NCBI GenBank assembly: GCA_965248265.1
Contig: CBDFJF010000002.1
Location: forward strand, 1,248,001-1,312,000
DNA: 64,000 nt
Direction of reading: 5' to 3'
Source of the DNA: Candidatus Latescibacterota bacterium
GTDB taxonomy: Bacteria > Latescibacterota > UBA2968 > UBA8231
Shown: positions 20,675-34,282 of the stretch, piece after piece
Layout: every line of letters starts with the position of its first letter
Position numbering within the stretch: the stretch's first letter is position 1
Notes under the pieces: model-generated
What the model was told of the DNA's origin: nothing
Database searches by the model: none
Seen by the model: only the letters and a program-made list of their open reading frames with translations
Translations under genes and position numbers: made by a program

Positions 20675-21700
20675 TCACTCCCCGCCCCGCTGAGCGCTTG
20701 TGTCATACCTACTCACACCACCCCGTGGCTCGTCACCGATTGTCCCGAACCACATGGCCCTATCCGACGACTGATACACCGAAAACACAATATTACTCAC
20801 CAGGCCGTCGCTCGTCGTGAAGGTCTGCCAGTTCACACCGTCATACCGACTCACCCCATTGAGTGTCCCGAACCACATGGCCCCATCCGAGGACTGATAG
20901 ACCGATTTCACACGATCGTCCGCCAGGCCGTCGCTGGTCGTGAAGGTCTGCCAGTTCAGTCCATGGTACCGGCTTACACCAGCACAGCATGTCCCGAACC
21001 ACATGGCCCCATCCGAGGACTGATACACCGATTTCACATGGTTGTGCGCCAGGCCGTCGCTCGTCTTGAAGGTCTGCCAGTTCACGCCGTCATACCGACT
21101 CACACGAAAAAGTGTCCCGAACCACATGGCCCCATCCGACGATTGAAACACCGACTCCACAAGGCGGCCCGCCAGGCCGTCGCTCGTTCCGAAGGTCTGC
21201 CAGTTCACACCGTCATACCGACTCACGCTGGCCGATGTTCCGAACCACATGGCCCCATCGGCGGACTGATACATCGAAAACACAGTATCGCTCACCAGGC
21301 CGTCGCTGGTCGTGAAGGTCTGCCAGTTCACGCCGTCATCGCGACTCACACCATTCCCTGTCCCGAACCACATGGCCTCATCAGAGGACTGATACACCGA
21401 AAACACAGTATTGCCCGCCAGGCCGTCGCTGGTCGTGAAGGTCTGCCAGTTCACGCCGTCATACCGACTCACACCATTAAGTGTCCCGAACCACATGGCC
21501 CCGTCAGACGACTGGTACACCGAAAACACATTGTTGTGCGCCAGGCCGTCTTGAGCAGTGAACGCCTGCCAGACCAAAGGCGTCAGCTCCGGATCGAGCG
21601 GGTTGTCTCGCTTGGCATCCTGGCCACAAGCTCCGAGCATCAAGAGTCCAACGAGGCACCAGGCGGGCTTCTTGCAACTAAGGGCGTTATCGTATGTCAT
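20675..21700 (-). CDS. Lipoprotein with 7-blade two-component-regulator-propeller (Reg_prop) repeats
   Basis: Lipobox LLMLGA-C followed by RDNPLDP, then seven 41-aa repeats WQTFTTSDGL..N.V.SVYQSSDGAMWFGT..GVSRYDGVN. Confidence 0.85.
   Translation of the reverse strand: MTYDNALSCKKPAWCLVGLLMLGACGQDAKRDNPLDPELTPLVWQAFTAQDGLAHNNVFSVYQSSDGAMWFGTLNGVSRYDGVNWQTFTTSDGLAGNTVFSVYQSSDEAMWFGTGNGVSRDDGVNWQTFTTSDGLVSDTVFSMYQSADGAMWFGTSASVSRYDGVNWQTFGTSDGLAGRLVESVFQSSDGAMWFGTLFRVSRYDGVNWQTFKTSDGLAHNHVKSVYQSSDGAMWFGTCCAGVSRYHGLNWQTFTTSDGLADDRVKSVYQSSDGAMWFGTLNGVSRYDGVNWQTFTTSDGLVSNIVFSVYQSSDRAMWFGTIGDEPRGGVSRYDTSAQRGGE
20702..21571. repeat. Coding tandem repeat, 7 units of 123 bp (one of 126 bp)
   Basis: TGT(C/T)CCGAACCACATGGCC recurs at 20741, 20864, 20990, 21113, 21236, 21359 and 21482. 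Confidence 0.95.
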
Positions 21701-21934: not shown

Positions 21935-23116
21935 ATGAACGAATTCCATGTCCCCTGGGCAGCATGGTATGGCAGCGAGCCGCTCACGTTGCGATTTCCA
22001 ACGGGTTGGGAGGTGTCGGTATGCCGCATGCGCGGGGGGGAGGATATCGGCGACGCCGGGATCCGCAAGGCGCTGGCCGAACCGATTGGCGCGCCGCCGT
22101 TGCGAGACTTCGCCGCCGGACGGCACAGCGCCGCCATTCTCGTCGATGACCTGTCGCGACCGACCCCCGCCTTCCGTGTGCTGCCCTACATCCTCGAGGA
22201 GTTGCATGCCGCGGGCATCGAAGACGACGGCATCACCATCATCGGCGCTCTGGCCGCGCACCGGCCGATGATGCGGGACGACTTCGTCAAGAAACTGGGT
22301 CCCGAAATCGTCGAACGCTACCGGGTCGTCAATCACAACGCTTACGAGAATCTCGAGTTTTTAGGCTATTCCAGCCTGGGTGTCCCGGTATTCGTCAACC
22401 GCGAGTTGATGGGCTGTCAGGTGCGAATCGCGGCTGGCATGATTACACCTAGAGGAGAGATGTTCGGGGGCGGCGCCAAGCTGTTGATTCCGGGGGCCTG
22501 CGGCCAGCAGACGATCATGCTAAACCACCGGCATGTGAATGGCGAGCCCTTCCGGCCGCACCTGGACGAGGTCGCCCGGATGGCCGGTCTGGGCTACATC
22601 GTCAATCCGTTGCTGAACGAGCAGCTGGAGATCATGGACCTGGTCGCCGGAGACGTTACGGCGGCCTTCGAGCGCGGCTGCGAACTCGGCGCCCAGCGCT
22701 ACGCGACGCCGATGCCCGCGGCGGGATCGATCGACGTGGGTGTGTTCAGCGCCTTCCCGAAGGACACGGAGCTCATCCAGGCGGGACTGGCTCTCGTGCC
22801 ACTCAGGAGTTGCGGTCACGATCCCTTCACCGATGACGGCACCATCGTGATCGCGAGCGCCTGTCCCGAGGGGCTGGGATGGCACTCGGTGCTGGGGCCT
22901 GGAACGGCGCTGCGCGGCGAGGCGGGGCCGCAACGGCGCAGGACCTTCCTGTTCTCTCCCGGTGTCAATGAGTACGATTGCCAGGCATTGTACGGCGACC
23001 ACGTGTCATGGTTCCGCCGTTGGGACGAGCTGGTCGAGCGCCTGACGGCCATTCACGGCAGCCAGGCGAAGGCGGCACTATTCCCGGCCGGTGCTCTGCA
23101 GATGGCAGAGCAGTAG
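21935..23116 (+). CDS. LarA (lactate racemase/DUF2088) family nickel-pincer epimerase homologue
   Basis: DDLSRPT, ALAAHRPM, VVNHN, FGGGAKLLIPG, TIMLNH and CPEGLG motifs. AGGAG RBS. Confidence 0.8.
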   Translation: MNEFHVPWAAWYGSEPLTLRFPTGWEVSVCRMRGGEDIGDAGIRKALAEPIGAPPLRDFAAGRHSAAILVDDLSRPTPAFRVLPYILEELHAAGIEDDGITIIGALAAHRPMMRDDFVKKLGPEIVERYRVVNHNAYENLEFLGYSSLGVPVFVNRELMGCQVRIAAGMITPRGEMFGGGAKLLIPGACGQQTIMLNHRHVNGEPFRPHLDEVARMAGLGYIVNPLLNEQLEIMDLVAGDVTAAFERGCELGAQRYATPMPAAGSIDVGVFSAFPKDTELIQAGLALVPLRSCGHDPFTDDGTIVIASACPEGLGWHSVLGPGTALRGEAGPQRRRTFLFSPGVNEYDCQALYGDHVSWFRRWDELVERLTAIHGSQAKAALFPAGALQMAEQ

Positions 23117-23128
23117 CCGCGGATTCGC

Positions 23129-23703
23129 CTAGCTCTCGTAATCAACGTGCAGCTGCACCGCGTCCACGATCAGGGCGTTTGTCGCGATTCACTCACCTTG
23201 CTGACCGTAAACTCTACAGTGTTTTCCCCTCTCCTGACCTGTGCGGGGCTGAGCGGGCATTCCAGCCACTGCCCACCGGTCGATGTCTGTGACGGGCCTG
23301 CAGGGCTGAGGCCGTCGAGGACCACATCGTTGAGCTTCACGACTATCTCGTCATCTCCGGCAACATCCCAAAGGTGGAGGCGAAAACGCCATGTAGGCCT
23401 ATCGCCCGCGGTCGCATCCTCGCCTACCTGAAACGGCACGCTGACGGGCTCTCCCGGTTTCAGGTGCAGCTTGTGCGGCTCCGCCAGGCTGGACTCCCCA
23501 GGGAAACGGTCCACACCGAACATCTTGCTCTTGTCGGCCATCACAGCGGGATCACCGATCTCCCGCCAGGTATCGATATCGGTGCTGTGAAAACCGTTGA
23601 AGATGTAGACCCCGTCGGCACCTGAGTTCCAGGCATTCATCGCCGCACCGCGCCATGCGGGAGCGACTCCATCCCAGGAGTTGAACTCCTGGATGTAACA
23701 GCG
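23129..23703 (-). pseudogene. 3' fragment of a GHL10-like gene (diverged copy of the 3' end of 32086..33720)
   Basis: RCYIQEFNSWDGVAPAWRGAAMNAW... matches the intact gene. The 5' part is replaced by the mobile element at about 23704, and there is a 1-nt deletion near 23170. Confidence 0.85.
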
Positions 23704-23723
23704 CGGGATGGACCAATCCCGTG
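23702..23723. other. Candidate terIS-like hairpin at the left junction of the element
   Basis: CGGGAT-GGACCA-ATCCCG inverted repeat located exactly where homology to the host gene stops. Confidence 0.4.
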
Positions 23724-23905
23724 TACGATCAGTACGCACTCGTGGGCAGCCGTTGTTAGACCGGGGAAAATACCTCAGCGTCGCCGACGGTCTGTGACGA
23801 ACCCGGACATCCTCGCTGCGTGTGTCGCCGGGCACACACATGCGTGGCCTCCACTACCCAGCGTCCAACTCCGGGACCGACGCCCCTCTCGGGTGAACTC
23901 ACCAC

Positions 23906-23921
23906 TGGTCTCCATGTTGCA
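23906..23921 (+). promoter_or_regulatory. Sigma54-like -24/-12 motif upstream of the transposase
   Basis: TGGTCTCCATGTTGCA has GG-N10-GC spacing and a TTGCA box, 12 nt before the ATG at 23934. Confidence 0.35.
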
Positions 23922-23933
23922 TGCCGCCACGGT

Positions 23934-25397
23934 ATGCCAACCGCTCACACCCATGGCAGCGGTTTCACCTACCGTCGCCGGACCCCCGAGAAGGAGCCCC
24001 TCTACCGGGTGCTGGCCGAGCATCTTGAGACGTTCGTAGAGCGCACGCGTTCATCGGACCGCCAGCTGCCGGGCCATGTCGAAAGGGAACTGCGTGCCTA
24101 TCTGGAATGCGGCATTTTGGCACATGGATTCCTGCGGGTACGGTGTGAGGACTGTGCCGAGGACCCCGTCGTCGCATTCTCGTGCCAGCGACGTTCCTTC
24201 TGTCCCAGCTGTATGGGACGACGGATGGCGGACACGGCCGCGCGCTTGACCGACGAGGTTCTGCCGCAGGTGCCGGTGCGGCAGTGGGTGCTGAGTCTGC
24301 CCTATGAGATCCGCTATCGCCTGGCCTGGGACGGCGAGTTGGTCGGCGCACTGTTATCCGTTTTTCTGCGCGTGGTTTATGGTTGGTATCGACGTCAGGC
24401 ACGAGCGCAGGGATACGAAGACGGTCGCTGCGGCTCGGTGACCTTCGTGCAACGATTCGGGTCGTCCCTAAATCTCAATCCCCATGCCCATGTCCTCATG
24501 ATCGACGGCGTCTACATCGACGGCGAGGACGGTCTGGAGTTCGTGGCCGCACCGACTTTGGGCGATGATGATGTGCAACAGATCGTCGAAACCACGGCAC
24601 GACGCGTTGTGCGCCTGCTACAGCGCCGCGGCCTGTTGGAAGATTCCCATGCCGATCCGTTGTGGGAACAGGAGCCCCTGCTGGCGACGATCACGGCGGC
24701 CTCCATCCAGGGCCAGGTGGCCACCGGAGAGCGCGCCGGTCAGCCCGTGCGCCGGCGCCTGCTCGACCCGCAAGAAGGCATCCGCACCGGCCCGCTGTGC
24801 TTCGCCTCGCGCGGCTTCTCCCTGCATGCGGCCACCCGTGTGCCAGCCCGCCGACCGCACTCGCCTGGAAAGACTGTGCCGCTACGTCAATCGACCGCCG
24901 CTGGCGGCGGGACGCCTGCAGATCCTCGATGCCGAGCAGGTGGCCTTCGACGTGAAAACGCCCTGGTCAGACGGCACCTATCGAATTGAGCTCTCGCCAC
25001 AAGAATTGATCGAGAAACTGGCCGCCCTGGTGCCCCCACGCCGCCTCAATCTGGTGCGCTACCATGGCGTCTTGGCGCCCAACGCCGCCGCTCGGGCACA
25101 GATCGTACCCGGCCCACAAGAACAGGGGAAGGACCAGAGCCGGTCCCCGGTCGAACTGGTGAGCTGACACCCGCCCAACGCCGACACCGCCTGGCCTGGG
25201 CCGCCCTCTTGCGCAGAGTGTTCCGCGTCGACGTCACCGTGTGCCCCGGCTGCGGCGGTCATATGAAAATCGTCGCGGCACTCACCCAGCCCCGCTCCAT
25301 TGCCCGCTACCTGGAAGGCGTCGGCCTGCCACCACGGGCACCGCCGATCGCCCCGGCACGCCCCCATCCCCAACCTGAGCTGGATTTCGCCGCCTGA
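23934..25397 (+). pseudogene. ISCR/IS91-family HUH transposase with zinc-binding domain, carrying two compensating frameshifts
   Basis: CG..AHGF.RVRCEDC...VAFSC..R.FCPSC, RQWVLSLP, QRFGSSLNLNPHAH (HUH), LERLCRYVNRPP (catalytic Tyr), RYHGVLAP and WAALLRRVF...CP.CGG. There is a +1 shift near 24848 and a return to the original frame near 25110-25165. Confidence 0.92.
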
Positions 25398-25610
25398 CAT
25401 CGATTCACGGCCACAGCCAAGGCACCGCTGTGCCCTGATACGTCACTGGCAACGCCCTCCTCGCTCACAGCTGTTCACCGCACGGCACCATTCCCAGCCT
25501 CAAGGTTCATCCATCGACCGTCAACCCCCGAAAACCGCCATCAACACCGTCAAAAACAAAAAATAGCACCTGACCGATTAACGATAACCTATTTTATAGC
25601 CACTAAGCAC
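25386..25610 (+). repeat. Element right end (oriIS-side), copy 1
   Basis: 225 bp from TTCGCCGCCTGA to CCACTAAGCAC, with 4 mismatches to copy 2. Confidence 0.95.
25577..25604. other. dif-like (XerC/D-type) 11-6-11 site, copy 1
   Basis: The reverse complement AGTGGCTATAA-AATAGG-TTATCGTTAAT matches E. coli dif GGTGCGCATAA-TGTATA-TTATGTTAAAT at 7/11 and 8/11 arm positions, with the ATAA-N6-TTAT core intact. Confidence 0.55.
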
Positions 25611-25814
25611 TTGTGGTGTCTGGGCGACAAAGATTCGCTTGTCCTTTTTTGCTAAACTTTGTAGCAATTCAAAAGAACCGTCTTGGCTGTGATCATCGAC
25701 TATCACCACGCGGGACACCGCTACGACATTCAAAGCATCGTAAACAACCTTCTCAATGAAGCGTGCTTCGTTGTAGCAGGGGATAACTACCGTAATGATT
25801 TCTTTATGATCCAT
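25607..25814 (-). pseudogene. Family 2 glycosyltransferase, 3'-truncated by the element end
   Basis: ITVVIPCYNEA and VIVDDHSQDGS GT2 motifs. The ORF runs into the repeat after about 68 codons, at GTGC. Confidence 0.85.
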
Positions 25815-25938
25815 AAACTTTTAAACCTATTCATTCAACTCATCGGATTTAGGCAGCGATCTATTAGAAAGCTGCTTCTTGAGCTCAAGGCGAAATAACT
25901 GCCAAAAGACGAGTCAAATTCAATAATTGCGGGTTTAT

Positions 25939-26802
25939 TCAGTGATCGGACGAAGTGAGAAATTCCTTAACTGACTCGGAATGAGGTGAAATTTCGATTT
26001 TGAATGTGCTTATCAAAGCCCCATTGTCAAAAGCCTTTGCATACCTTAGACCCAGTAAGTTTTCGGTGTTGATCCCAATAGGTATTGAAAGAGCTTCAAA
26101 ACATTTTGCGGCCCAAAACATCAGAGAAGTCGGAACGGGTATGAACAAACGTTTTAGGCCCAGTGTCAAACAAATCGTTTTGTAAATATCTTTTACTTGA
26201 GTTGCAGGCATTTCAGCCGCGACGAATTGTCCGCTCACATCTTCTTGGAGACCGACAGTTATAATCTTACAGAGGTCCTGCCAATGGATAGTTTGCATTG
26301 GTTGGCGGCCCCCGCCGATTAAAGGGACCAGCGGAAGAGCCTTCATAATTTCAACAATGGCGCCAAACACACCACCAGAAGAAATCACCAAACCAGGTTT
26401 GAGAACAAGTGCCTTAGAGCCTGCCAGCATAGATTCTATGGCAAGCTTTTGCCTGCCATAGCGGGATCGGGCTTTGTCGTGTGCCGCCAATGAAGACAAA
26501 AATACAAATTTAACATTGGACTCTTGGCACTTTTGCCAAAGCTTAGTAGTGCCGACAACGTTTACGTCTTGGTCGTGGGAACTAACAAGCGGCTGGTACG
26601 CGCAGTGGACGAGCGCATCCAAATCCCCAAAAATTGAATCTGCGAGTTCTTGGCCAAGCTCGTATTTAACTGTATTAAATTGGGAACTAGTCGTCCGCTG
26701 CATCCTGACGACATCGTGTCCACAATTACACAAGTGCTGGCAAAGCAACTGGCCAATGTTGCCACTGGCACCTGTAACCGCAATTTTGAGAAATTTTTTC
26801 AT
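25939..26802 (-). CDS. NAD-dependent epimerase/dehydratase family (low-GC cargo)
   Basis: VTGASGNIG, VHCA, FLSS and YGRQK motifs. Confidence 0.85.
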   Translation of the reverse strand: MKKFLKIAVTGASGNIGQLLCQHLCNCGHDVVRMQRTTSSQFNTVKYELGQELADSIFGDLDALVHCAYQPLVSSHDQDVNVVGTTKLWQKCQESNVKFVFLSSLAAHDKARSRYGRQKLAIESMLAGSKALVLKPGLVISSGGVFGAIVEIMKALPLVPLIGGGRQPMQTIHWQDLCKIITVGLQEDVSGQFVAAEMPATQVKDIYKTICLTLGLKRLFIPVPTSLMFWAAKCFEALSIPIGINTENLLGLRYAKAFDNGALISTFKIEISPHSESVKEFLTSSDH

Positions 26803-28424
26803 TGAGCGATCAGGCCCTTTGCCACCCTGTGAGCATTGGCCATAATAGAAAATGTCAATCCATTAGAAGGAAGGAAATTGAAGCCACTTGAATCGGCGCA
26901 GTATACACTTTGGGTCCCGTGAATTCGCCCGTCGCTTGCCTGGGTCAAAGGGACATCATTATTGGAAAACGGGAGCGTGCCAGCATAATGGATTGAAGAG
27001 CCATGTTGTAACTTTTGTTTGGTCAACGGTATTAGTCCCAGCGCTATGTATGCTCGTTTGATTTTGTTGTCAAAAGCCAGATCCTCGCTTTTCTCACTGT
27101 TTGATAACTTGTAGTCGATGTGTAATTTATCCCCTGTAGGAGAAGATGAATCTGCAACCAACTTGAGTCTTTTTTGGTCCGTGATGGAATCAGGGTGGTT
27201 TGTAGTTGTAATCACGATTGCCGAGGAAATGGCGTGCATCAATCTGCGTGCATCTTTGGTCGATAAAGGTACTTCTTTAATAAGTTTAAAAAGTAGCAAT
27301 GAACGATAGGTATACATTGAAACGGTTCTATGGCTGTGTTTAGGATCAACGCAGTACATGGTCAGCTGACCCATGCTTGTTTTAAGTTGATCTAGAGGTG
27401 TGCCTAACATCCGGTAGTGGAGGCAAGGGCTAATGGCGTAGTGATTGGTCAATATGGGGACCGGCTCCTGGGACCCAAAAGAGCGCAATACGATCCGAGC
27501 TGTACCCAAAGCGCTCGATCCCAGGATCAACTTCCGACAGGTAAGGATCTCTTCTTCGCGGCTTTCTTGGCGAAGGCAATGTAATTCGACAAGACCCTTG
27601 GATGTTTCTTTGAAGCTTTTCACAAACAATCCGTCTAAATATTCAAAATTTGGATTCGTTTTAAGCGCATCAATAGTAAAGCGGGGCCTGTATACGGATT
27701 TGCCATGATCGATCCAAAACTCCATGTCAGAATAGTCGCAAGCTCGCCGGTCGGCCAAAGCTTGGGTCAGCACAGCAAAGGGAGTCTGTCCCAAAAATAC
27801 GCCCATCGATTTATTGAATTTATTTTTGCCACGGTCGTAGGCGGCCAACAATCGGCTGGACGAGTTGTCCTTTTGCATGGGCTTTTGTATTGACTCGATC
27901 CCTTCCCCACAAAAAGGCCAGATGTCGTCGTGGCTTCCGGATACACCAATCCTATCGGCAATATGCTCATAGGCTTGGCGCATGCTGTTGATTGGGAGCG
28001 ACATTTTTTCTAGTTCTTGGTTGGTAAACGCAGCACAACCAGCCCCCCAACCGTTTCCCAGGCCGCCATAGGCGAGGCTTTCCATGAAATTGAAATCATC
28101 GGATTTGCTTGTCAAAAATTGATCTACGCCATCAACGATGAACTGCCGCGGCGGCGTCAGCGAGTGTTTTGCTACTCCCCAGGGAAATCCCTCGAAATTA
28201 TTTCCTAAAAAATAGCTGCGTTGGTCTTCTTGGGTTTGGCGGATGGATACAAAATCTTGATCGGGGACCAACTGATTATAGTGGTTGGGTTTGTGCCCTA
28301 CATCCACCATAGCCACATTTTGGCCCGACTCCACTAGTGTTTGTGCAGCGTGTGCACCGCTCATGCCTGAGCCAACAACTATAAAGTCTTTAACATTCAA
28401 TTGTTTATTGTCCTTCACGTTCAC
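26799..28424 (-). CDS. GMC-family FAD oxidoreductase (low-GC cargo)
   Basis: IVVGSGMSG, GGLGNGWGA, HYAGT and C-terminal ADSS...PS..LT..IMANA.RVA. Confidence 0.85.
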   Translation of the reverse strand: MNVKDNKQLNVKDFIVVGSGMSGAHAAQTLVESGQNVAMVDVGHKPNHYNQLVPDQDFVSIRQTQEDQRSYFLGNNFEGFPWGVAKHSLTPPRQFIVDGVDQFLTSKSDDFNFMESLAYGGLGNGWGAGCAAFTNQELEKMSLPINSMRQAYEHIADRIGVSGSHDDIWPFCGEGIESIQKPMQKDNSSSRLLAAYDRGKNKFNKSMGVFLGQTPFAVLTQALADRRACDYSDMEFWIDHGKSVYRPRFTIDALKTNPNFEYLDGLFVKSFKETSKGLVELHCLRQESREEEILTCRKLILGSSALGTARIVLRSFGSQEPVPILTNHYAISPCLHYRMLGTPLDQLKTSMGQLTMYCVDPKHSHRTVSMYTYRSLLLFKLIKEVPLSTKDARRLMHAISSAIVITTTNHPDSITDQKRLKLVADSSSPTGDKLHIDYKLSNSEKSEDLAFDNKIKRAYIALGLIPLTKQKLQHGSSIHYAGTLPFSNNDVPLTQASDGRIHGTQSVYCADSSGFNFLPSNGLTFSIMANAHRVAKGLIAQ

Positions 28425-28819
28425 TTAATCACAACCTTGACAATTATATATCCCAAAATGCTGCGAAGACTCGCACTGGCCATTGCCGCCGCAAACTTCA
28501 ACCAGTCAATTGGCCGAAACTTTTGCGGCAAAAATTTATCTGTATGGCGTGTTGAGGTTTCTAGGATGGCTAACATTAGAGTGATTTTTTTGCGAATCTG
28601 ACAATGAGGTGCATTAATCCTCAGACCAGCATCAAAAATCCCCATCAACATAGAACTCCTTACCATGCTAGTCCAAATTGCCTTATGGTTTTGACTCTCC
28701 AATTCCATGTTTGTGCAGCCGTGAGCTCTCATATAAGCGCTAATCTCGTCGTCAGAAGGAGATATGCCTATAAGATATTTTGAAATTGCGATTGCTTCAA
28801 CGCGTAAAGGCCCCATCAT
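28421..28819 (-). CDS. Hypothetical protein (cargo), translationally coupled to its neighbours
   Basis: 132-aa ORF with 4-nt overlaps to the genes on both sides. Confidence 0.65.
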   Translation of the reverse strand: MMGPLRVEAIAISKYLIGISPSDDEISAYMRAHGCTNMELESQNHKAIWTSMVRSSMLMGIFDAGLRINAPHCQIRKKITLMLAILETSTRHTDKFLPQKFRPIDWLKFAAAMASASLRSILGYIIVKVVIK

Positions 28820-29622
28820 TGGTGCCTTTTTCGTAGGACGAAAACACCATGCAATGCTGAAAAAATTTTGATGGGGCTCATTAGTCCTTCCAAAAGCTTA
28901 ACTGGTGCAATCATAAAATCTGGGAGCAGTTGTCGAAAATTGAGGCCTCCAGAAAAAAAATATCGCAAATAGTTTCCGATAGGGTTTTGGTATATCAGTT
29001 CAAGATCTGGAAAGTCATTTTTAAATTTTTCCAGGTCGCGTTTGAATACGATATACGATAAGGCCTGATTTGCATTTGTCATATGGCCAAGTTCTTTGCC
29101 TTGCTGCCAGCCCTGCTGTTTTTTATCAAAGTGTTCGGTGTTGTGGACATTTGCGTGAAACGCTGCCGAAACAGGACCATAATGGGGTTCAATTAAAACG
29201 CAGCCACCGCCAGGAATCAGGGTCCTTTGAAGTTGTTGAAAAAAAAGTTCGGGCCTGGGGAAGTGATGGAAGCAATTCAAGCCAAAAAAAGCTCGGACGG
29301 ATTCATCATCAAAATCCATTTCTTGGGCGTTTAAGGTTTTATCTAAATGCGGAGCGGGGACAATGTCTGTTACGATCAAATCCGGACAATAGTTTTTGAA
29401 CAAACTAACCCCCGCGCCCAACTCGACAAGTTTGCCGTCGCCGGAGAAAAACCTTTCATTCATGCGCAGGCATTCGAAATAAAACTCTTCAAAAACACCG
29501 AGCATCACGGCCTTTGATTGCAGGATTTCCTTGTGAACTAAAATCCTGTGTTCATCGTCCACATTTATATTTTTCATTCGGGGATCTGAGAGAATTGACC
29601 GTAGTACCGCGATAAAAGTCAT
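28816..29622 (-). CDS. Class I SAM-dependent methyltransferase (cargo)
   Basis: VELGAG, TDI, FHH and L.PGG..VLIEP motifs. Confidence 0.85.
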   Translation of the reverse strand: MTFIAVLRSILSDPRMKNINVDDEHRILVHKEILQSKAVMLGVFEEFYFECLRMNERFFSGDGKLVELGAGVSLFKNYCPDLIVTDIVPAPHLDKTLNAQEMDFDDESVRAFFGLNCFHHFPRPELFFQQLQRTLIPGGGCVLIEPHYGPVSAAFHANVHNTEHFDKKQQGWQQGKELGHMTNANQALSYIVFKRDLEKFKNDFPDLELIYQNPIGNYLRYFFSGGLNFRQLLPDFMIAPVKLLEGLMSPIKIFSALHGVFVLRKRHQ

Positions 29623-30288
29623 TTTGTAATTGTCGCCGTTGGCTGGAAGCTCGTGAGTTTTGACTATCCGACTGTATTTACCCCGACGGGTAAAAGTCCG
29701 TTTTCTGTCGACGGTCTCGTTTTCTTTTTAGAGACGATCAAAGGAACGGCCTTTTATTCATTTCTTATTTTAAAGTCCCAACCACTTATAGCTATATTGC
29801 TTGTTGTTTTCATTCCAGTCGCCATTTGGTGGCGTGTAGGGTGGCGACTGTCAGCTGGCATGTGCCTTATGGGCGCGATGTACCTTAGTGCGATTGCCAG
29901 CGTATATACTTTTGCGTTTCCAGGCAAAGAAGGCGAAAGATTGGCCGGATACGATCGGTATTTTAGCGAGCTTCTAAAAATACTATTATTCGTTACTAGT
30001 TTGCTCTATTCGTTTTCAAAAGCAGAGAACCGAGCTCATTAAGCAGCATATAACAAAAGTCATTGCAGTTCTCGCTGTGTCGCTTTTTTGGCTTGTCGTC
30101 AAGCAGGCACAAAGTTCGGCGTCAGCTGTCAAAGACGACTTAATTCCGCAGATTGCGTTTGTTCAAGAAACGGTCTCCCGAGTCCCTGGGTCACATAAAA
30201 TTATGGCGATCAACATCGACGGTGATCACATTTTAGGCTTTAAATTTGACTATTGGGCAGTCAGGAGAAAGGTCAAGGACAGGTTGCA
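29623..30288 (+). pseudogene. Internal fragment of a polytopic membrane protein, truncated at both ends and interrupted near 30040
   Basis: Two consecutive hydrophobic ORF pieces (29653..30042 and 30077..). The second runs into repeat copy 2. Confidence 0.55.
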
Positions 30289-30513
30289 TTCGCCGCCTGA
30301 CATCGATTCACGGCCACAGCCAAGGCACCGCTGTGCCCTGATACGTCACTGGCAACGCCCTCCTCGCTCACAGCTGTTCACCGCGCGGCACCATTCCCAG
30401 CCTCAAGGTTCATCCATCGACCGTCAACCCACGAAAACCGCCATCAACACCGTCAAAAAACAAAAATAGCACCTGACCGATTAACGATAACCTATTTTAT
30501 AGCCACTAAGCAC
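30289..30513 (+). repeat. Element right end, copy 2 (no transposase attached)
   Basis: Direct repeat of 25386..25610 that includes only the last few codons of the transposase. Confidence 0.95.
30480..30507. other. dif-like site, copy 2
   Basis: Identical to 25577..25604, in the same orientation. Confidence 0.55.
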
Positions 30514-30700
30514 ATGGCAAACCGCACGTGTGGCGCGATGTGATTTGTATGATTTCTAGCATATGACCCCACAAGGAGTGCAAAAGGTTGGGGTGCTCTT
30601 GTACGAAGCACTTAATAGGCCATTGCAGTTGCCGTTAATTACCCACCCGCAAGGAATAGCTCGCCGCGTTTGTCGACCCTATTCAAACGGAGCAGCGACC

Positions 30701-31844
30701 GTGAAAGTCACCGCCGTCGAAACCCACATTGCAGCGACCTGGACATTCGTCAAAGTAGTGACCGACGAGGGGCTCTACGGAGTCGGCGAGGTCCACCCCG
30801 CCAGCGGCACCGGCGGCACGCCGTTCACCGCCAGGGCCGCAATCGAATACTGCGCCGAATACCTGGTCGGCAAAGACCCGCTGGCCATCGAGAAGCACTG
30901 GCAGCATATGTTTCGCCGCTGCCTTTTCCGCGGCGGCTCCGATCTAATGGCCGCCATCGGCGGCATCGATACGGCGCTGTGGGATCTCGCCGGCAAAGCG
31001 GCCAATTTGCCCGTGCACCGACTCCTCGGGGGACCGACGAGGGACCAGGTGCGCGTCTATGTCCACCTCGGCGGCGATTCACCCGAGCACATGGCCGAAA
31101 ACGCCGAGAAAACTGCTCGCCGAGGGCTACACCGCCCTGCGCTTCTACCCATTGGGCTCGTTTCACGCCGACTTTCCGAGCTACCAGGCGCTGGTGCGCA
31201 CCGCGGTCCGCTATACCGCAGCGGTGCGCGAAGCCGCAGGCCCCGATACTGACCTCATGATCGACGTCATCAACCGGCTCACCCCGCCCGAGGCCAACGC
31301 CATCGGCCGCGCCCTCGAACCCTTCGGTCTGTTCTTTTTTGAGGACCCGATCGAGCCGGACAATATCGACGCCATGGCGCACGTGGCGGCCGAAGTGCCG
31401 ATGCCGGTCGCGTCCGGAGAGCGCCTCTATACGATCTACCAGTTCCGGGAGCTGTTCAACAAGAACGCTTCCGCCTACGCTCGGCCGGATCTGAGCCTTG
31501 CGGGCGGCATAACCAACATCAAAAAGATCGCGGCCCTGGCCGAGGCCAGCTATGTCGGCGTCGTACCGCACAACCCGCTCAGCCCGATCATGACCGCGGC
31601 CTGCGTCCAGCTCGACGCCGCGACCCACAATATCGCCATTCAGGAATACTCGGCGACCGAGTGCGACGCGCCCAAGAGCGATATCGTCGATCAGCTGCTG
31701 GCGATCAAGGACGGCCACCTGCAATTGCCGGACCGACCCGGCATCGGCATAGACCTCAATCTCGAAGCGTTCCCGCACTACCCACCGCAGCCCTGGACCA
31801 GAGCAGCAATCTCCAATAGCGACGGTGCGCTGCGGGAGTATTAG
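30701..31844 (+). pseudogene. DgoD-like enolase-superfamily enzyme with a +1 frameshift
   Basis: The N-terminal half (GTG 30701, GIDTALWDLAGK) and C-terminal half (FFED, SGER, PHNP) are in different frames. The shift falls in GAGAAAACTG near 31110 and may be a sequencing error. Confidence 0.8.
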
Positions 31845-31868
31845 CTGGCCGGATATGCCTATTGAGAG

Positions 31869-31998
31869 ATGAAAAAAGAAAATCTGATTTCCTTTGGGCT
31901 CGACGCCGCCGATCTGGAAGAGCGCGGCCAGTTTAGCGATTTGCGCTACGACGGCGAGGGCGCTATTGGCCTCGACGATAGAGTGCTGGTGGAGGACG
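31869..31998 (+). pseudogene. 5' stub of an unknown gene fused to a larA 3' remnant
   Basis: ATG after GAGAG, reading MKKENLISFGLDAADLEERGQFSDL..., then switching to larA-tail sequence at about 31999. Confidence 0.45.
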
Positions 31999-32661
31999 CT
32001 GACAGCCATTCACGGAAGCCATGCGAAGGCGGCACTATTCCCGGCCGGTGCTCTGCAGATGGCGGAGCAGTAGGATACAACCCGCTCAACTGTCGTAGTC
32101 AACATGTAGCTGCGCCCCGTCCACGATCACGGGTGCTGGTCGCGATTCACCCACCCTGGTGACCGTGAACTCTACCATGTTTTCCCCTCTCTTGACCTGC
32201 GCCGGGTTGAGTGGGCATTCCAACCACTGCCCCCCGGTCGCCGCCTGTGACGGGCCGGCAGGGCCGAGGCCGTCGAGGACCACATCGTTGAGCTTCACCA
32301 GTATCTCGTCATCTCCGGCAGAATCCCAAAGGTGGAGGCGAAGACGCCATCCAGGATCGTCGCCCGCGGTCGCATCCTCGCCTACCTGAAACGGCACGCT
32401 GACGGGCTCTCCCGGTTTCAGTTGCAGCTCCTGCGACTCCGCAAGGCTGGACTTCCCAGGGAAACGGTCCACACCGAATATCTTGCTCTTGTTGGCCATC
32501 AAGGCGGGATCACCGATCTCCCGCCAGGTATCGATATCAGTGCTGTGAAAACCGTTGAAGATGTAGACCCCGTCGGCACCTGAGTTCCAGGCATTCATCG
32601 CCGCACCGCGCCACGCGGGAGCGACTCCGTCCCAGGAGTTGAACTCCTGGATGTAACACCG
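31999..32661. repeat. Diverged duplicate of 23042..23703 (larA 3' tip plus GHL10-like 3' end)
   Basis: Colinear alignment by eye, roughly 85-90% identical. The larA tip ends at TAG 32073. Confidence 0.9.
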
Positions 32662-33720
32662 TTTGTCCAGGTCGTTCGGATGACCTCCGTAGAGTGTTTT
32701 TACCCACGAGCCGTAGGTCCGGTGCTCCCCCGATCCCAGGCCGAGAAAAGCCCAATGAACCCAGAGTGGCCAAACGACGCACGGGTACACCGGCACATCA
32801 TGCCGGTGCGCGAGGTCGACGATCTCGCGGAACGAATCAGTCATCATGGACTCCTCGAGACCGCCCGCTATCAGGATATCGACGAGGTCCTCTGCCAGCC
32901 ACCGCTTCACGTCCAGGCCGACGAATCGCGCGTCCGAGGCTGTGAAAGGCGTGCGCACAGCTAGCAGCAGGGGACGCCCGCGTTCGAGCTCCACGTCGGC
33001 GGTCATCCTCTTTATGCGCCGCACCAGATCCGTCATCATCTCCAGGTGGCGTTCCTCCACCGGGTTGCCAGCTAACGAAGCTGCAAAAAACGGGGGGCTT
33101 CGCAGGAAGTCCAACTCGACACCATCGACGTCGTATCCCTCACACACTTCACGAACCAGGGAGAAGATGTGCTCGGTTACCTCTGGACGGCTGAAATCGA
33201 GGGATGTCCACTCAGAGTGACGTGGTCCCTCCGGATACTTCTCCCAATCACCCGGCTCTCCAAGCAGGTACTCGGGATGATCCTGTTTGAAGGGAGCTAT
33301 CCCATAGTACCGGGTGCGATACCCCTCCGGATAGGAGTCATGGGTGTCGTTGACGCGCAGGGACCAGAAAACTTCCAGGCCGTTGTCGTGGGCGTGGTCC
33401 ACCTGAATCTGCAGGTCATCGCGCCCGTAGGTATCGATGAGCTCCTGCGAAACCCCTTTTCCATAGTAGCCACCTAGTTTGGTATGGTGCGTGAACCAGA
33501 GGCCTCCCGTGCAGGTGGAATACCAGATGCTGTCGACGTTGGTGCCCACCAGGGAGGTGGTGCGCGCGTTCAGGTAGTCATCGATCAGCTCCCCTCCACT
33601 GCGCGCCAACAACTGCCAGTCGCCGTCGTGGTGATTCTGCACCTCCCTCACGTCGTCACCGTCATTGTTGTAGATCAGCCGCCGCTTGCGCCAGCGTGCC
33701 GCTCGCCGTTTCTCATCCAT
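32086..33720 (-). CDS. GHL10-like glycosyl-hydrolase-like protein
   Basis: RRLIYNNDG, FWSLRVNDTHD, LDFSRPEV and YDVDGVELDFLR. ATG 33720 follows GAGGG. Confidence 0.7.
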   Translation of the reverse strand: MDEKRRAARWRKRRLIYNNDGDDVREVQNHHDGDWQLLARSGGELIDDYLNARTTSLVGTNVDSIWYSTCTGGLWFTHHTKLGGYYGKGVSQELIDTYGRDDLQIQVDHAHDNGLEVFWSLRVNDTHDSYPEGYRTRYYGIAPFKQDHPEYLLGEPGDWEKYPEGPRHSEWTSLDFSRPEVTEHIFSLVREVCEGYDVDGVELDFLRSPPFFAASLAGNPVEERHLEMMTDLVRRIKRMTADVELERGRPLLLAVRTPFTASDARFVGLDVKRWLAEDLVDILIAGGLEESMMTDSFREIVDLAHRHDVPVYPCVVWPLWVHWAFLGLGSGEHRTYGSWVKTLYGGHPNDLDKRCYIQEFNSWDGVAPAWRGAAMNAWNSGADGVYIFNGFHSTDIDTWREIGDPALMANKSKIFGVDRFPGKSSLAESQELQLKPGEPVSVPFQVGEDATAGDDPGWRLRLHLWDSAGDDEILVKLNDVVLDGLGPAGPSQAATGGQWLECPLNPAQVKRGENMVEFTVTRVGESRPAPVIVDGAQLHVDYDS

Positions 33721-33910
33721 CCTGGTTTCCCTCTTTGTTCGTGGGCGCTTCCTGCAATTCAGTGGAAGATATGGACGTGACCGTGGGCAATGCGAGCGTC
33801 GTGGTAATTCGTTGTTGCCACCTGGCCGATGTTCTATGTTCCTCGACCGTTGTCGCAGCAACCGAGTGGGCACTGGCTGACTGAACATACCGAATGGGGA
33901 GCATTCAGAA

Positions 33911-34282
33911 ATGGTACACAAGATTCACAAGATCGCGATCATAACCGACGATATCGACGGAGCCGTTGAGTTCTACACGCAGAAGTTAGGGTTGTCCGTT
34001 GTCGAGCGCTTCGCCAACGAGGATGATGAGGACTACGTCTTCCTCGATGCCGGAGGCATCCTGCTCGAGCTGATGCCGCAGAAGACCATGGGGCAGGACA
34101 GCGGTTTCCACCACATCTCGTTCGACGTCGACAGCGTCGAGGACAGTGCACGGGAGTTGAAGGACAAGGGAGTCCCCATCACCGTGGAACCTTTTGAGGT
34201 GGGTGGGGGGACCGGTATCACGCTGGGTTTCTTTGAGGGCCCCAACAAGATGAACCTGCAGCTCTTCCATCGCGAGAAATGA
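33911..34282 (+). CDS. VOC/glyoxalase family protein
   Basis: AVEFYTQKLGL, LELM, GFHHISFDV and FFEGP motifs. Confidence 0.9.
   Translation: MVHKIHKIAIITDDIDGAVEFYTQKLGLSVVERFANEDDEDYVFLDAGGILLELMPQKTMGQDSGFHHISFDVDSVEDSARELKDKGVPITVEPFEVGGGTGITLGFFEGPNKMNLQLFHREK

What the first reader, a model, noticed from the sequence alone, without database searches (positions are those of the whole stretch)
23704..30513. Two-origin composite rolling-circle transposon that captured foreign DNA
Seen: the order is candidate ter hairpin, transposase, 225-bp end, 4.7-kb low-GC cargo, then a second 225-bp end (221/225 identical) with no transposase. Both ends finish at ...CCACTAAGCAC and then diverge. The GT2 gene is cut at that GCAC (GTGC on its own strand). 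No terminal inverted repeats or clear target duplication are visible. Established: IS91-family elements insert next to a tetranucleotide (GTTC/CTTG type) without duplication, and replicate from ori toward ter. Inference: GTGC is the target tetranucleotide, and initiation at the orphan right end would move cargo plus transposase as one 6.8-kb unit. Alternatively, copy 2 is a stand-alone 225-bp mini-element made by premature termination; note the GCA on both flanks.
Basis: partly seen in the sequence, partly recalled or inferred. Interest (0 to 1): 0.7.

Follow-up and report, generated by a model that had tools for sequence, protein, structure and literature searches.

The report
Dead ISCR-like element with captured foreign DNA
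A broken rolling-circle insertion sequence of the IS91/ISCR kind sits next to a 4.7-kb piece of foreign sugar-chain genes that is closed off by a second, cut-down copy of the element's origin end, a layout already known from antibiotic-resistance ISCR elements and here found in a marine bacterium.

Summary
An IS91-family, ISCR-like element (23701-25610) is followed by a 4,678-nt low-GC cargo (25611-30288) and then by a second 225-nt copy of its origin end (30289-30513, 221/225 identical). Both copies stop at ...CCACTAAGCAC.

- The transposase gene is broken by two frameshifts.
- The 6.8-kb unit is single-copy, and its flanks are not an insertion site.
- The block continues to 31998 with a second captured fragment (a dead MR_MLE gene and 43 codons of a gene whose remainder is not found in this assembly).

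The whole 8.3 kb lies between a 660-nt, 90%-identical direct repeat of host DNA. A related metagenome contig shows a mosaic pattern that fits installation by homologous recombination, as in ISCR1 complex integrons.

The genome holds 15 such origin ends. They include a 24-kb array of seven ends and two further "origin-segment-origin" pairs. None of 75 other genomes of the order has the end or the cargo.

Verdict: a real, decayed ISCR-type capture mosaic and a new member of a known kind. Movement as a "two-origin composite transposon" is possible in cis but unsupported. Misassembly is unlikely.

The parts
23042..23700 (.). H_A, the left copy of a 660-nt direct repeat of host DNA. It holds the last 75 nt of the LarA-like gene (21935-23116, +), the spacer, and the 3' ~530 nt of a GHL10-like gene (minus strand) that is cut at 23700.
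   Evidence: Alignment with 31999-32660. Identity by part is 72/84, 43/55, 239/268 and 239/252. Pfam Lar_N for 21935-23116 and GHL10 for the full paralogue.
23701..25606 (+). ISCR-like IS91-family element, from the ter end to the last base before the tetranucleotide (about 1.9 kb, GC 0.64).
   Evidence: Left border from the break in paralogue homology. Left-end region is homologous to other full copies from about 23746. Right border from 20 aligned ends.
23703..23721 (+). Subterminal palindrome CGGGAT-N6-ATCCCG, the candidate terIS hairpin.
   Evidence: Present in the fold but no better than shuffles (z -0.42). Its position next to the left border matches the terIS layout described in passages of PMC13181058.
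23820..25397 (+). Transposase pseudogene. Frameshifts lie at C-run 24847-24849 (+1) and at 25134-25135 (-1). The HxH motif is in frame; the Y2_Tnp C-terminal half can be read only in another frame (24565-25167).
   Evidence: Pfam. tblastn against the intact paralogue. Three-way DNA alignment. NCBIfam best hit ISCR_clade_Ia, below cut-off. Contigs with the window's state at 24847 exist in runs X5 and X7.
25386..25610 (+). Origin-end copy 1 (225 nt). It starts 12 nt before the end of the transposase reading frame and includes the terminal GCAC at 25607-25610.
25611..30288 (.). Cargo, a 4,678-nt low-GC (0.447) fragment of a polysaccharide-type gene cluster:
- GT2 5' fragment, 25611-25814 (-)
- NAD epimerase/dehydratase, 25939-26802 (-)
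- GMC-like flavoprotein, 26799-28424 (-)
- 132-aa ORF, 28421-28819 (-)
- SAM methyltransferase, 28816-29622 (-)
- 129-aa ORF, 29653-30042 (+)
- ORF 30077-30288 (+), cut at the junction
   Evidence: Pfam and NCBIfam. GC. Single copy in the genome. Found in 0 of 75 other genomes of the order. Best homologues of the 541-aa protein are 49-51% identical. A short-read contig covers 25581-30318 with 0 differences.
30289..30513 (+). Origin-end copy 2: 5'-truncated, 225 nt, no transposase, GCAC at 30510-30513.
   Evidence: All 4 differences from copy 1 are private to copy 2; copy 1 equals the C1 copy at those sites.
30514..31998 (+). Second captured fragment, with host-like GC (0.617). It holds an MR_MLE (enolase-superfamily) pseudogene with a frameshift between 31059 and 31252, probably in A-run 31109-31112. 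It also holds the first 43 codons (31869-31997) of a large gene whose remainder was not found in this assembly.
   Evidence: Pfam MR_MLE_N and MR_MLE_C lie in two frames. Contigs 30484-31370 and 31352-32052 show 0 differences. The full-length homologue is in G013 and the only other hit in G000 is a 26% paralogue.
31999..32660 (.). H_B, the right copy of the 660-nt repeat. It runs on into the intact GHL10-like gene (32086-33921, minus strand).
   Evidence: The junction 31998/31999 is bridged by short-read contigs (X5 record 14, X8 record 31). Microhomology GCTGGT(C/G)GAG lies at the joint.

Best explanation
This is a decayed ISCR-like (IS91-family) rolling-circle element with captured DNA at its origin end.

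Shown:
- The element's oriIS end is joined, exactly at ...CCACTAA|GCAC, to a foreign low-GC gene fragment.
- The fragment's far end is joined to a 5'-truncated 225-nt copy of the same oriIS end.
- The transposase is frameshifted.
- The block continues with a second dead fragment up to 31998.
- The whole 23701-31998 block lies between a 660-nt diverged direct repeat of host DNA.
- The same genome holds several other 'ori-segment-ori' structures.

Inferred:
- The mosaic was put together elsewhere, by rolling-circle insertion of the element beside the cargo and by illegitimate joins that made the truncated copy.
- The 8.3-kb block, carrying about 660 nt of LarA-tail/GHL10 DNA next to its ter end, was then installed here by homologous recombination through that stretch. 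This would be Campbell-type integration of a circle closed at a GCTGGTsGAG microhomology, or an equivalent event. It is the way ISCR1 regions are thought to enter class 1 integrons.
- The 6.8-kb unit therefore did not transpose into a GTGC at this site.
- In cis it still has a ter end and two origin ends. Copy 2 is far longer than the 82 bp reported as sufficient for IS91. It could in principle move from ori2 to ter with a transposase supplied in trans, or loop out by recombination between the 225-nt repeats. Neither has been seen.
For: Family:
- Pfam Zn_Tnp_IS91 and Y2_Tnp.
- NCBIfam best hit is ISCR_clade_Ia: E 7.9e-68 and 4.6e-27 for the two pieces, and 6e-112 for the intact paralogue.
- The nearest plasmid transposases are ISVsa3 (which I recall to be ISCR2; no call shows it) at 39-41% identity.

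Fixed origin end:
- 15 exact pattern hits in G000, with a reversed-pattern control of 0, plus 5 metagenome loci. All diverge right after the terminal four bases.
- A related contig, L044 (LarA region 91% identical), has a 66-nt fragment of the same end (98.5% identical...GCAC) followed by a thermonuclease gene. So the same end carries a different neighbour and has a different left break.

Foreign cargo:
- GC 0.447, about 6 sd below the genome's 2-kb windows. It is the longest of 13 low-GC blocks.
- It was found in 0 of 75 other genomes of the order.
- Its homologues are at most 51% identical.

Not an insertion site:
- The gene cut at 23700 does not resume after 30513.
- The fragment 30514-31998 holds a frameshifted MR_MLE gene and 43 codons of a gene with no remainder in the genome.
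- The 660-nt repeat is native on its left in copy A and on its right in copy B.

Crossover signal:
- At sites where the two repeat copies differ, L044 agrees with copy A 6:2 in 23042-23125 and with copy B 21:7 in 23181-23448. Fisher p = 0.016, with intervals chosen after seeing the data.

Recurrence in this genome:
- A 24-kb array (C2:1134270-1158167) has one full copy plus six truncated origin ends. It is flanked by a 161-nt repeat at 96% identity, and its last origin end abuts that repeat directly.
- Two further pairs have 225-nt (100%) and 319-nt (97.8%) repeats.

Published analogues (passages read):
- Two IS91 copies flank sdpA and give an 11-kb circle (PMC5737581).
- Truncated and full ISCR2 copies lie around tet(X3), and circles are reported (PMC7758954).
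- ISCR1 has diverse genes downstream of oriIS (PMC13393415).
Against: - No donor and no empty site were found, so the order of events is inferred.
- The two repeat copies are only 90% identical. They could be old paralogues, and the GHL10 family is multi-copy in this genome and its relatives.
- The crossover test rests on one 2.3-kb metagenome contig and on post-hoc intervals. The middle interval (23126-23180) is mixed, 4:8.
- In the window, copy 2 does not abut the repeat as the last end of the 24-kb array does. A transposase-made circle junction is therefore not visible here; the joint at 31998/31999 looks like a microhomology join.
- Left breakpoints of 10 truncated copies show no common motif, so how truncated ends arise is unexplained.
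- The second frameshift (25134) is not confirmed. All contigs covering that place in X5, X7 and X8 carry the extra C, although the one long contig listed there also carries the SNPs of the C1 copy.
Confidence: 0.55

Rival explanations
1. The segment 23704-30513 is a two-origin composite rolling-circle transposon that moved here as one unit, starting at the orphan origin end and stopping at ter, and inserted next to a GTGC target.
For: - All cis parts are present in the right order and orientation.
- Copy 2 keeps 225 nt; 82 bp of the right end is reported as sufficient for IS91 (PMC13181058, passage).
- 5'-GTGC was a rare IS91 insertion site there (2 of 240 events in one condition, Table 2 passage).
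- Both origin ends are followed by GCAC.
- Four intact related transposase ORFs exist in the genome for supply in trans.
Against: - The unit is single-copy in the genome. The cargo is in 0 of 75 other genomes of the order and in none of the 5 metagenome loci that carry the end.
- The left flank is a gene cut at 23700, and its other half is not on the right.
- The right flank is itself a dead fragment that ends at a second breakpoint.
- The terminal four bases track the IS subfamily rather than the site.
- The unit's own transposase is broken.
- The nearest intact paralogue is 71% identical in protein, and its origin end is about 74% identical over 228 nt.
Confidence: 0.12
2. Two separate insertions. 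Copy 2 is a stand-alone 5'-truncated mini-element (an aborted rolling-circle product) that landed in the foreign cluster. A full element later landed 4.7 kb away in the GT2 gene, and the pair then travelled together.
For: - Truncated origin-end copies are common and of many lengths: 66, 72, 215 (two copies), 225, 353, 401, 507 and 802 nt.
- The 802-nt copy on contig C1 lies between two genes and may be a simple insertion.
- All 4 differences between the two ends are private to copy 2, so the two ends come from different lineages of the element.
Against: - GC changes from 0.43-0.45 to host-like values across copy 2, so its two flanks are not one contiguous target.
- No truncated copy examined in the arrays has contiguous flanks.
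- Two same-orientation hits within 4.7 kb of foreign DNA are unlikely by chance.
- The 'GCA on both flanks' is 3 nt.
Confidence: 0.15
3. In-place build-up. The two 660-nt copies are old paralogues. The mosaic grew at this locus by repeated joining of new DNA to resident origin ends (insertion at the ori/tetranucleotide junction, or recombination between origin-end copies), followed by deletions.
For: - The repeat copies are only 90% identical, and the GHL10 family has many paralogues.
- L044 shows that the same LarA-GHL10 locus was already hit by this element in a relative about 9% diverged, at another breakpoint.
- Many IS91 fragments in the genome are decayed: 35 tblastn pieces, of which about 6 loci are near full length.
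Against: - The repeat covers spacer DNA and the LarA tail, not just the gene.
- Identity rises to 239/252 next to the IS.
- The switch in L044's affinity fits a crossover better than simple paralogy.
- The remainder of the 43-codon gene was not found in this assembly.
Confidence: 0.15
4. Assembly artefact. The 225-nt repeat caused a false join between this genome and a low-GC organism.
For: - No single public record spans 23.6-30.6 kb.
- The short-read contigs reach only 30 nt into each repeat, one below the tool's bridging rule.
- The samples hold strain variants of the IS.
Against: - The cargo contig (25581-30318, 0 differences) ends in origin-end sequence on both sides.
- Its depth follows the flanking chromosome in the three runs of the source sample: X5 10.3 against 11.5-12.3, X7 2-4.7 against 3.0-3.4, X8 0-2 against 4.6-5.2.
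- The genome is in two contigs of 3.2 and 4.1 Mb.
- Similar ori-segment-ori structures recur elsewhere in the assembly.
Confidence: 0.03

Closest known systems
ISCR elements (IS91-related; ISCR2/ISVsa3 and 'ISCR clade Ia')
   Same: - HUH-type transposase with Zn_Tnp_IS91 and Y2_Tnp domains. The best NCBIfam model is ISCR_clade_Ia, and the best plasmid hits are ISVsa3 transposases.
- Two unlike ends and no target duplication.
- Unrelated DNA is joined exactly at the oriIS end.
- Truncated copies that keep one end lie beside the cargo, as for truncated and full ISCR2 around tet(X3) (PMC7758954, passages).
   Different: - Only 39-41% protein identity to ISVsa3.
- Scores are far below the curated cut-offs: 375 bits against 925 for the intact paralogue.
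- The host is a marine environmental bacterium, and the cargo is polysaccharide and metabolic genes, not resistance genes.
- The terminal four bases (GCAC, GCGC, GCGT) differ from the GTTC/CTTG type.
ISCR1 complex class 1 integrons
   Same: The element and the variable DNA downstream of its oriIS lie between two direct copies of the DNA that flanks the ter side. There it is the 3'-CS; here it is the 660-nt LarA-tail/GHL10 stretch. Different cargo meets the same oriIS boundary (PMC13393415, passage, says ISCR1 sits downstream of the 3'-conserved segment with diverse adjacent genes). The model of rescue by homologous recombination is recalled from Toleman et al. 2006, which was not held.
   Different: - The repeat here is 90% identical, not near-identical.
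- A ter-side end seems to be present.
- A second truncated origin end and a second fragment lie inside the block.
IS91, IS801 and IS1294 (classical IS91 family) and their one-ended transposition
   Same: - oriIS downstream of the transposase gene and terIS upstream.
- A subterminal palindrome at ter.
- A tetranucleotide beside oriIS.
- Failure of termination co-mobilises DNA on the ter side (PMC13181058, passages).
- Two IS91 copies around the sdpA cluster yield an 11-kb circle (PMC5737581, passages).
   Different: - The NCBIfam transpos_IS91 score is below cut-off: 103 bits against 125 for the intact paralogue.
- The cargo here lies on the ori side, which one-ended transposition alone does not mobilise.
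- No orf121-like gene was looked for.

Membership tests
IS91 family (broad sense, including ISCR) | HUH/Tyr rolling-circle transposase with the IS91 zinc-binding and Y2_Tnp domains | tested here: met
   PF14319 E 1.2e-19 and PF04986 E 1.5e-05 and 8.9e-19, on two reading-frame pieces. The gene is frameshifted twice.
IS91 family (broad sense, including ISCR) | Two different ends, with no terminal inverted repeats and no target-site duplication | tested here: met
   None of the 5 inverted pairs listed pairs 23701 with 25610 or 30513. The flanks are GTAACA and TTGTGG/ATGGCA. Caveat: the present flanks are probably not an original insertion site.
IS91 family (broad sense, including ISCR) | Conserved oriIS end downstream of the transposase gene, abutting a specific tetranucleotide | tested here: met
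   20 ends (15 in G000, 5 in metagenomes) share ...CGATAACCTAyyTTATnnyCACTAAG plus 3 nt and then diverge. Whether the last four bases belong to the target or to the element is not settled.
IS91 family (broad sense, including ISCR) | terIS with a subterminal palindrome next to the cleavage site | tested here: inconclusive
   A 6-7-bp stem lies at 23703-23721, right at the border, but z is -0.42 against shuffles. Left ends of other copies align only from about 23746.
IS91 family (broad sense, including ISCR) | Rolling-circle transposition with single-stranded circular intermediates | not testable with these tools
   Only contigs of public runs were available. The one listed joint near the repeats (25406 to 30418) has 28 letters on its shorter side and is not the expected product.
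ISCR clade Ia (NCBIfam NF052416) and IS91 equivalog (NF033538) | Score above the curated cut-off of the model | tested here: not met
   The intact paralogue scores 374.8 bits against a cut-off of 925, and 102.9 against 125. The window pieces score 229.2 and 94.7 bits, and 64.8 and 38.1 bits. It is a divergent relative, not a member of those named groups.
Composite rolling-circle transposon (two oriIS, one terIS, moving as a unit) | Two same-orientation origin ends bracketing cargo, with a ter end beyond the transposase | tested here: met
Composite rolling-circle transposon (two oriIS, one terIS, moving as a unit) | Evidence that the unit moved: a further copy, or flanks that are contiguous target DNA | tested here: not met
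   One copy in G000. Found in 0 of 75 other genomes. The flanks are not contiguous, and the block runs on to 31998 between 660-nt repeats.
Composite rolling-circle transposon (two oriIS, one terIS, moving as a unit) | A working transposase in cis | tested here: not met
   There are two frameshifts. The first is also seen in short-read contigs of X5 and X7; the second is not confirmed.
ISCR1-type complex region | Direct duplication of the ter-side flank on the far side of the element plus cargo | tested here: met
   23042-23700 against 31999-32660, 593/659 identical. The same pattern, with 161 nt at 96%, flanks the 24-kb array.

The most novel reading that the evidence does not exclude
In this lineage the ISCR-like element acts as a natural collector of genes and gene fragments. 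New DNA is repeatedly joined at one fixed oriIS boundary, which builds same-strand arrays of 'segment + truncated origin end' modules (seven ends in 24 kb). Whole arrays then spread between strains as circles that carry a piece of ter-side flank and integrate by homologous recombination, leaving 161-660-nt flanking repeats. That would be a chromosomal, non-resistance counterpart of ISCR1 complex integrons, and a bacterial parallel to gene capture by Helitrons.
Probability: 0.25. Interest if true: 0.6.

Novelty: new member of a known kind. Interest (0 to 1): 0.35.

Why it matters
ISCR elements are known almost only as carriers of antibiotic-resistance genes in clinical Proteobacteria, and how they pick up DNA on the oriIS side is still argued. 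Here a distant relative in a marine bacterium shows the same layout with ordinary cargo: a foreign polysaccharide-gene fragment and metabolic genes. It occurs in several states within one genome: a pair, an array of seven ends, and long flanking repeats. That gives a natural series of junctions for working out how truncated origin ends and ori-side cargo arise. It also suggests that homologous recombination through co-mobilised flank, rather than transposition, places such blocks. The single locus in the finding is itself a decayed, ordinary example.

Tried and rejected
- **Hairpin energies.** Folds at the ter border, at 23800-23860 and at the origin end are all within the shuffle range, z from -0.42 to +0.47.
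- **Common motif at left breakpoints.** None was found among 10 truncated copies. One apparent break (C2:1150257) is an indel, not a border.
- **Tetranucleotide in source DNA.** I asked whether the four bases after the origin end come from the captured DNA. Paralogues of two array segments read ...GCAAA|ACG and ...ACGTC|CGCG at the break, not GCGC. The true sources are unknown, so this is inconclusive.
- **GT2 reading frame across GCAC.** It reads Val-Leu after Gln68, which is not informative.
- **Donor search.**
  - The genome-contig scan gave one 34%-identical partial hit, in a Pseudanabaenaceae record.
  - The protein search gave nothing above 51% identity.
- **Empty site in relatives.** The nearest genomes are other genera (LarA at most 77% identical), so no empty site could be read.
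- **Run X1.** This seawater metagenome from another study covers LarA and IS parts but gives no cover over the cargo. A part without cover is not evidence.
- **Joint 25406 to 30418.** It skips 5,011 nt and has 28 letters on its shorter side. It is not the 4,903-nt product expected from recombination between the repeats, so I did not interpret it.
- **X1 loose end at 23048.** It looked like a third breakpoint at the repeat border, but it reads as a diverged LarA homologue.
- **Long repeat near C2:2705449.** This right-flank repeat (1,500 nt at 99.8%) turned out to be a duplication of 'truncated origin end + 1.5 kb flank', not a flanking target repeat.
- **Toleman et al. 2006** is not held. What I say of it is recalled.

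Full report
**Observation.**
- The window holds a 225-nt direct repeat, 25386-25610 and 30289-30513, 221/225 identical. My first coordinates, 228 nt, included three flanking bases.
- Both copies end ...CCACTAAGCAC and then diverge, to TTGTGG and ATGGCA.
- Copy 1 begins 12 nt before the end of a transposase reading frame. Copy 2 has no transposase.
- Between them lie 4,678 nt at GC 0.447. The element has GC 0.641 and the genome 0.596, with an sd of 0.025 for 2-kb windows. This is the longest of 13 low-GC blocks in 7.3 Mb.
- On the minus strand a GT2 gene keeps its first 68 codons and is cut where the GCAC begins.

**The element.**
- The ORFs carry Zn_Tnp_IS91 and Y2_Tnp.
- The best NCBIfam model is 'ISCR element clade Ia'. 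The IS91 equivalog comes second, and both score below their cut-offs.
- The best plasmid hits are ISVsa3 transposases at 39-41% identity. ISVsa3 is, as I recall, the same element as ISCR2; no call shows this.
- The gene is broken. Compared with a 98.6%-identical truncated copy on contig C1 and with an intact paralogue, it has one C too many at 24847-24849 and one too few at 25134-25135. The Y2_Tnp C-terminal half is therefore out of frame.
- Short-read contigs in runs X5 and X7 include the first change. At the second site every contig that covers it has the extra C, but the one long contig listed there also carries the SNPs of the C1 copy. That site is therefore unconfirmed.
- Four related copies in the genome have open frames of 486-534 codons.

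**The ends.**
- The left border is set by a paralogous stretch: 23042-23700 aligns with 31999-32660, and the similarity stops at 23700-23703.
- A 6-7-bp palindrome sits right at the border. It folds no better than shuffles.
- Other full copies align with this region only from about 23746.
- The right end belongs to a family. BLAST gives 21 matches in the genome. The exact 26-nt pattern gives 15, with a reversed-pattern control of 0, plus 5 marine metagenome loci.
- In all 20 of these ends, similarity stops after CACTAAG plus three bases.
- Those last four bases are GCGC in 11 ends, GCGT in 5, GCAC in 3 and GAAC in 1, and they go with the sequence subfamily.
- The GAAC copy differs from copy 1 at only 2 of the last 228 positions. 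That is a weak hint (about 3.5% by chance, my estimate) that the four bases come from the target.
- Paralogues of two captured segments lack the tetranucleotide at the break.
- Passages of PMC13181058 state that IS91-family elements insert beside 5'-CTTG, GTTC or GTCC, that 5'-GTGC was a rare IS91 site (2 of 240), and that 82 bp of the right end suffices.
- So 'GTGC target' is possible but not shown.

**The cargo.**
- It encodes the GT2 fragment, an NAD epimerase/dehydratase, a GMC-like flavoprotein, a methyltransferase and small ORFs. The last ORF is cut at 30288.
- It is single-copy in the genome.
- It is absent from the 75 other genomes of the order that were searched.
- Its largest protein has no homologue above 51% identity: 1,380 hits, of which the 120 best were listed.
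- A foreign origin is well supported. The donor is unknown.

**The surroundings change the reading.**
- The gene cut at 23700 is a GHL10-like gene, and its other half is not to the right of 30513.
- What follows copy 2 (30514-31998) is an MR_MLE gene with a frameshift, which short-read contigs confirm. Then come the first 43 codons of a large gene that is intact in genome G013. Apart from a 26% paralogue, it has no remainder in this assembly.
- At 31999 the 660-nt stretch starts again and runs into an intact GHL10 gene.
- The 8.3-kb block 23701-31998 therefore lies between direct repeats of host DNA. Copy A is native on its left side (whole LarA gene) and copy B on its right side (whole GHL10 gene).
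- The copies are 593/659 identical, and 239/252 in the part nearest the IS.
- The joint at 31998/31999 shows a GCTGGT(C/G)GAG microhomology between the 43-codon gene and the LarA tail.
- A metagenome contig from a relative, L044 (LarA region 91% identical), has the same LarA-GHL10 locus cut at another point (equivalent to 23448) by a 66-nt fragment of the same origin end. That fragment is followed by a thermonuclease gene.
- At sites where copies A and B differ, L044 sides with A 6:2 in the LarA tail and with B 21:7 in the GHL10 part. Fisher p = 0.016, on intervals chosen after looking.
- That mosaic is what a single crossover inside the 660 nt would leave if a circle carrying the IS block and a diverged copy of the stretch had integrated by homologous recombination.

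**The genome-wide pattern.**
- tblastn finds 35 transposase pieces, of which about 6 loci are near full length.
- A 24-kb array at C2:1134270-1158167 holds one intact copy followed by six truncated origin ends (72 to 507 nt), all on one strand.
  - Each truncated end is preceded by an unrelated segment with ordinary genes: an aminotransferase, an S15 peptidase, a sulfatase, an MR_MLE gene, a nitrilase-type hydrolase.
  - The array is flanked by a 161-nt host repeat at 96% identity, and the last origin end abuts that repeat directly.
- Two more 'origin-segment-origin' pairs exist, with 225-nt (100%) and 319-nt (97.8%) repeats.
- A second low-GC block abuts an IS fragment.
- None of 75 other genomes in the order has the origin-end pattern.

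**Assembly.**
- In three runs of the likely source sample, one contig covers 25581-30318 without a difference. It stops 30 nt inside each repeat, one letter short of the tool's bridging rule.
- Other contigs cover 30484-31370 and 31352-32052. One bridges the left border (23639-24147, a variant allele).
- Cargo depth follows the neighbouring chromosome in each run.
- No listed record spans the whole stretch, so linkage across the repeats rests on the two-contig assembly itself.
- A false join is unlikely but not formally excluded.

**Mechanism.**
- Best reading (0.55): a dead ISCR-like element with ori-side cargo closed by a truncated origin end. It was assembled elsewhere and installed here, together with a second fragment, by recombination through co-carried flank, as proposed for ISCR1 regions.
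- Shown: the structure, the breaks, the repeats and the recurrence.
- Inferred: the order of events, the circle and the crossover.
- Rivals:
  - two independent insertions, with copy 2 as a mini-element (0.15);
  - in-place growth between old paralogues (0.15);
  - misassembly (0.03).

**Comparison and novelty.**
- The layout 'element - cargo - truncated element' is described for ISCR2, and circles are reported there (PMC7758954, passages).
- Cargo between two IS91 copies that yields a circle is described in PMC5737581 (passages).
- Diverse DNA at the oriIS side of ISCR1 is described in PMC13393415 (passages).
- This is a new, distant member of that kind in a marine bacterium.
- The multi-end arrays with long flanking repeats are the more unusual feature, and they lie outside the finding's coordinates.
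- I searched papers twice and did not search specifically for such arrays. I make no claim that they are unpublished.

Noticed in passing
G000:C2:1134270-1158167 (minus strand; about 90 kb upstream of the window): A 24-kb array. One intact ISCR-like copy is followed by six 5'-truncated origin ends (72, 285, 507, 215, 215 and 401 nt) on the same strand. Each is preceded by an unrelated host-GC segment with ordinary metabolic genes. The whole array is flanked by a 161-nt direct repeat of host DNA (96%), and the last origin end abuts that repeat directly.
   Followed up: partly
G000:C2:2705452-2707575 and G000:C2:2775529-2777733: Two more 'origin end - about 1.6-kb segment - origin end' pairs without a transposase. 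Their repeats are 225 nt (100%) and 319 nt (97.8%). The segment of the second pair has lower GC (0.48-0.52).
   Followed up: partly
G000:C2:1067300-1070980: A second low-GC block (0.39-0.48, about 3.7 kb). Its right edge abuts a 65-nt internal fragment of an IS91-family transposase gene. More IS fragments lie at 1058118-1058752, 1060272-1060552 and 1065082-1065300.
   Followed up: partly
L044 (metagenome contig Ga0310125_10046311) 1829-2316: In a relative (LarA region 91% identical), the LarA-GHL10 locus is cut at another point by a 66-nt fragment of the same origin end (...CCACTAAGCAC). A thermonuclease gene, absent from G000, follows it.
   Followed up: yes
window 30563-31844: The MR_MLE (enolase-superfamily) gene is split over two frames, probably by an extra A in the run 31109-31112. 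Short-read contigs agree with the assembly here, so it is a real pseudogene.
   Followed up: yes
window 31869-31997: The first 43 codons of a large gene. It is 84% identical in DNA to the start of a 707-codon ORF in G013:C244, and it is cut at the border of the 660-nt repeat. The only other hit in this genome is a 26% paralogue.
   Followed up: yes
G000:C2:2703913-2705744 and 2724252-2726075: A unit of 'truncated origin end + about 1.5 kb of its right flank' is present twice, 20 kb apart. It is 93.8% identical over 1,837 nt, and the flank is 99.8% identical over 1,500 nt.
   Followed up: no
G000:C2:1156210-1156231 (minus strand): At the origin end of the intact copy, the terminal 15 nt ATCCTCACTAAGCGC occur twice, separated by 3 nt.
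   Followed up: no
window 20741-21599: Five to eight tandem copies of a 123-nt unit (77-86% identical) lie inside a gene with Reg_prop (two-component regulator propeller) repeats on the minus strand. This looks like ordinary repeat-domain coding sequence.
   Followed up: no
G000:C1:667338-668139: An 802-nt 5'-truncated copy, 98.6% identical to the window's element but ending GAAC instead of GCAC. It lies between two minus-strand genes and may be a simple insertion of a truncated copy.
   Followed up: partly
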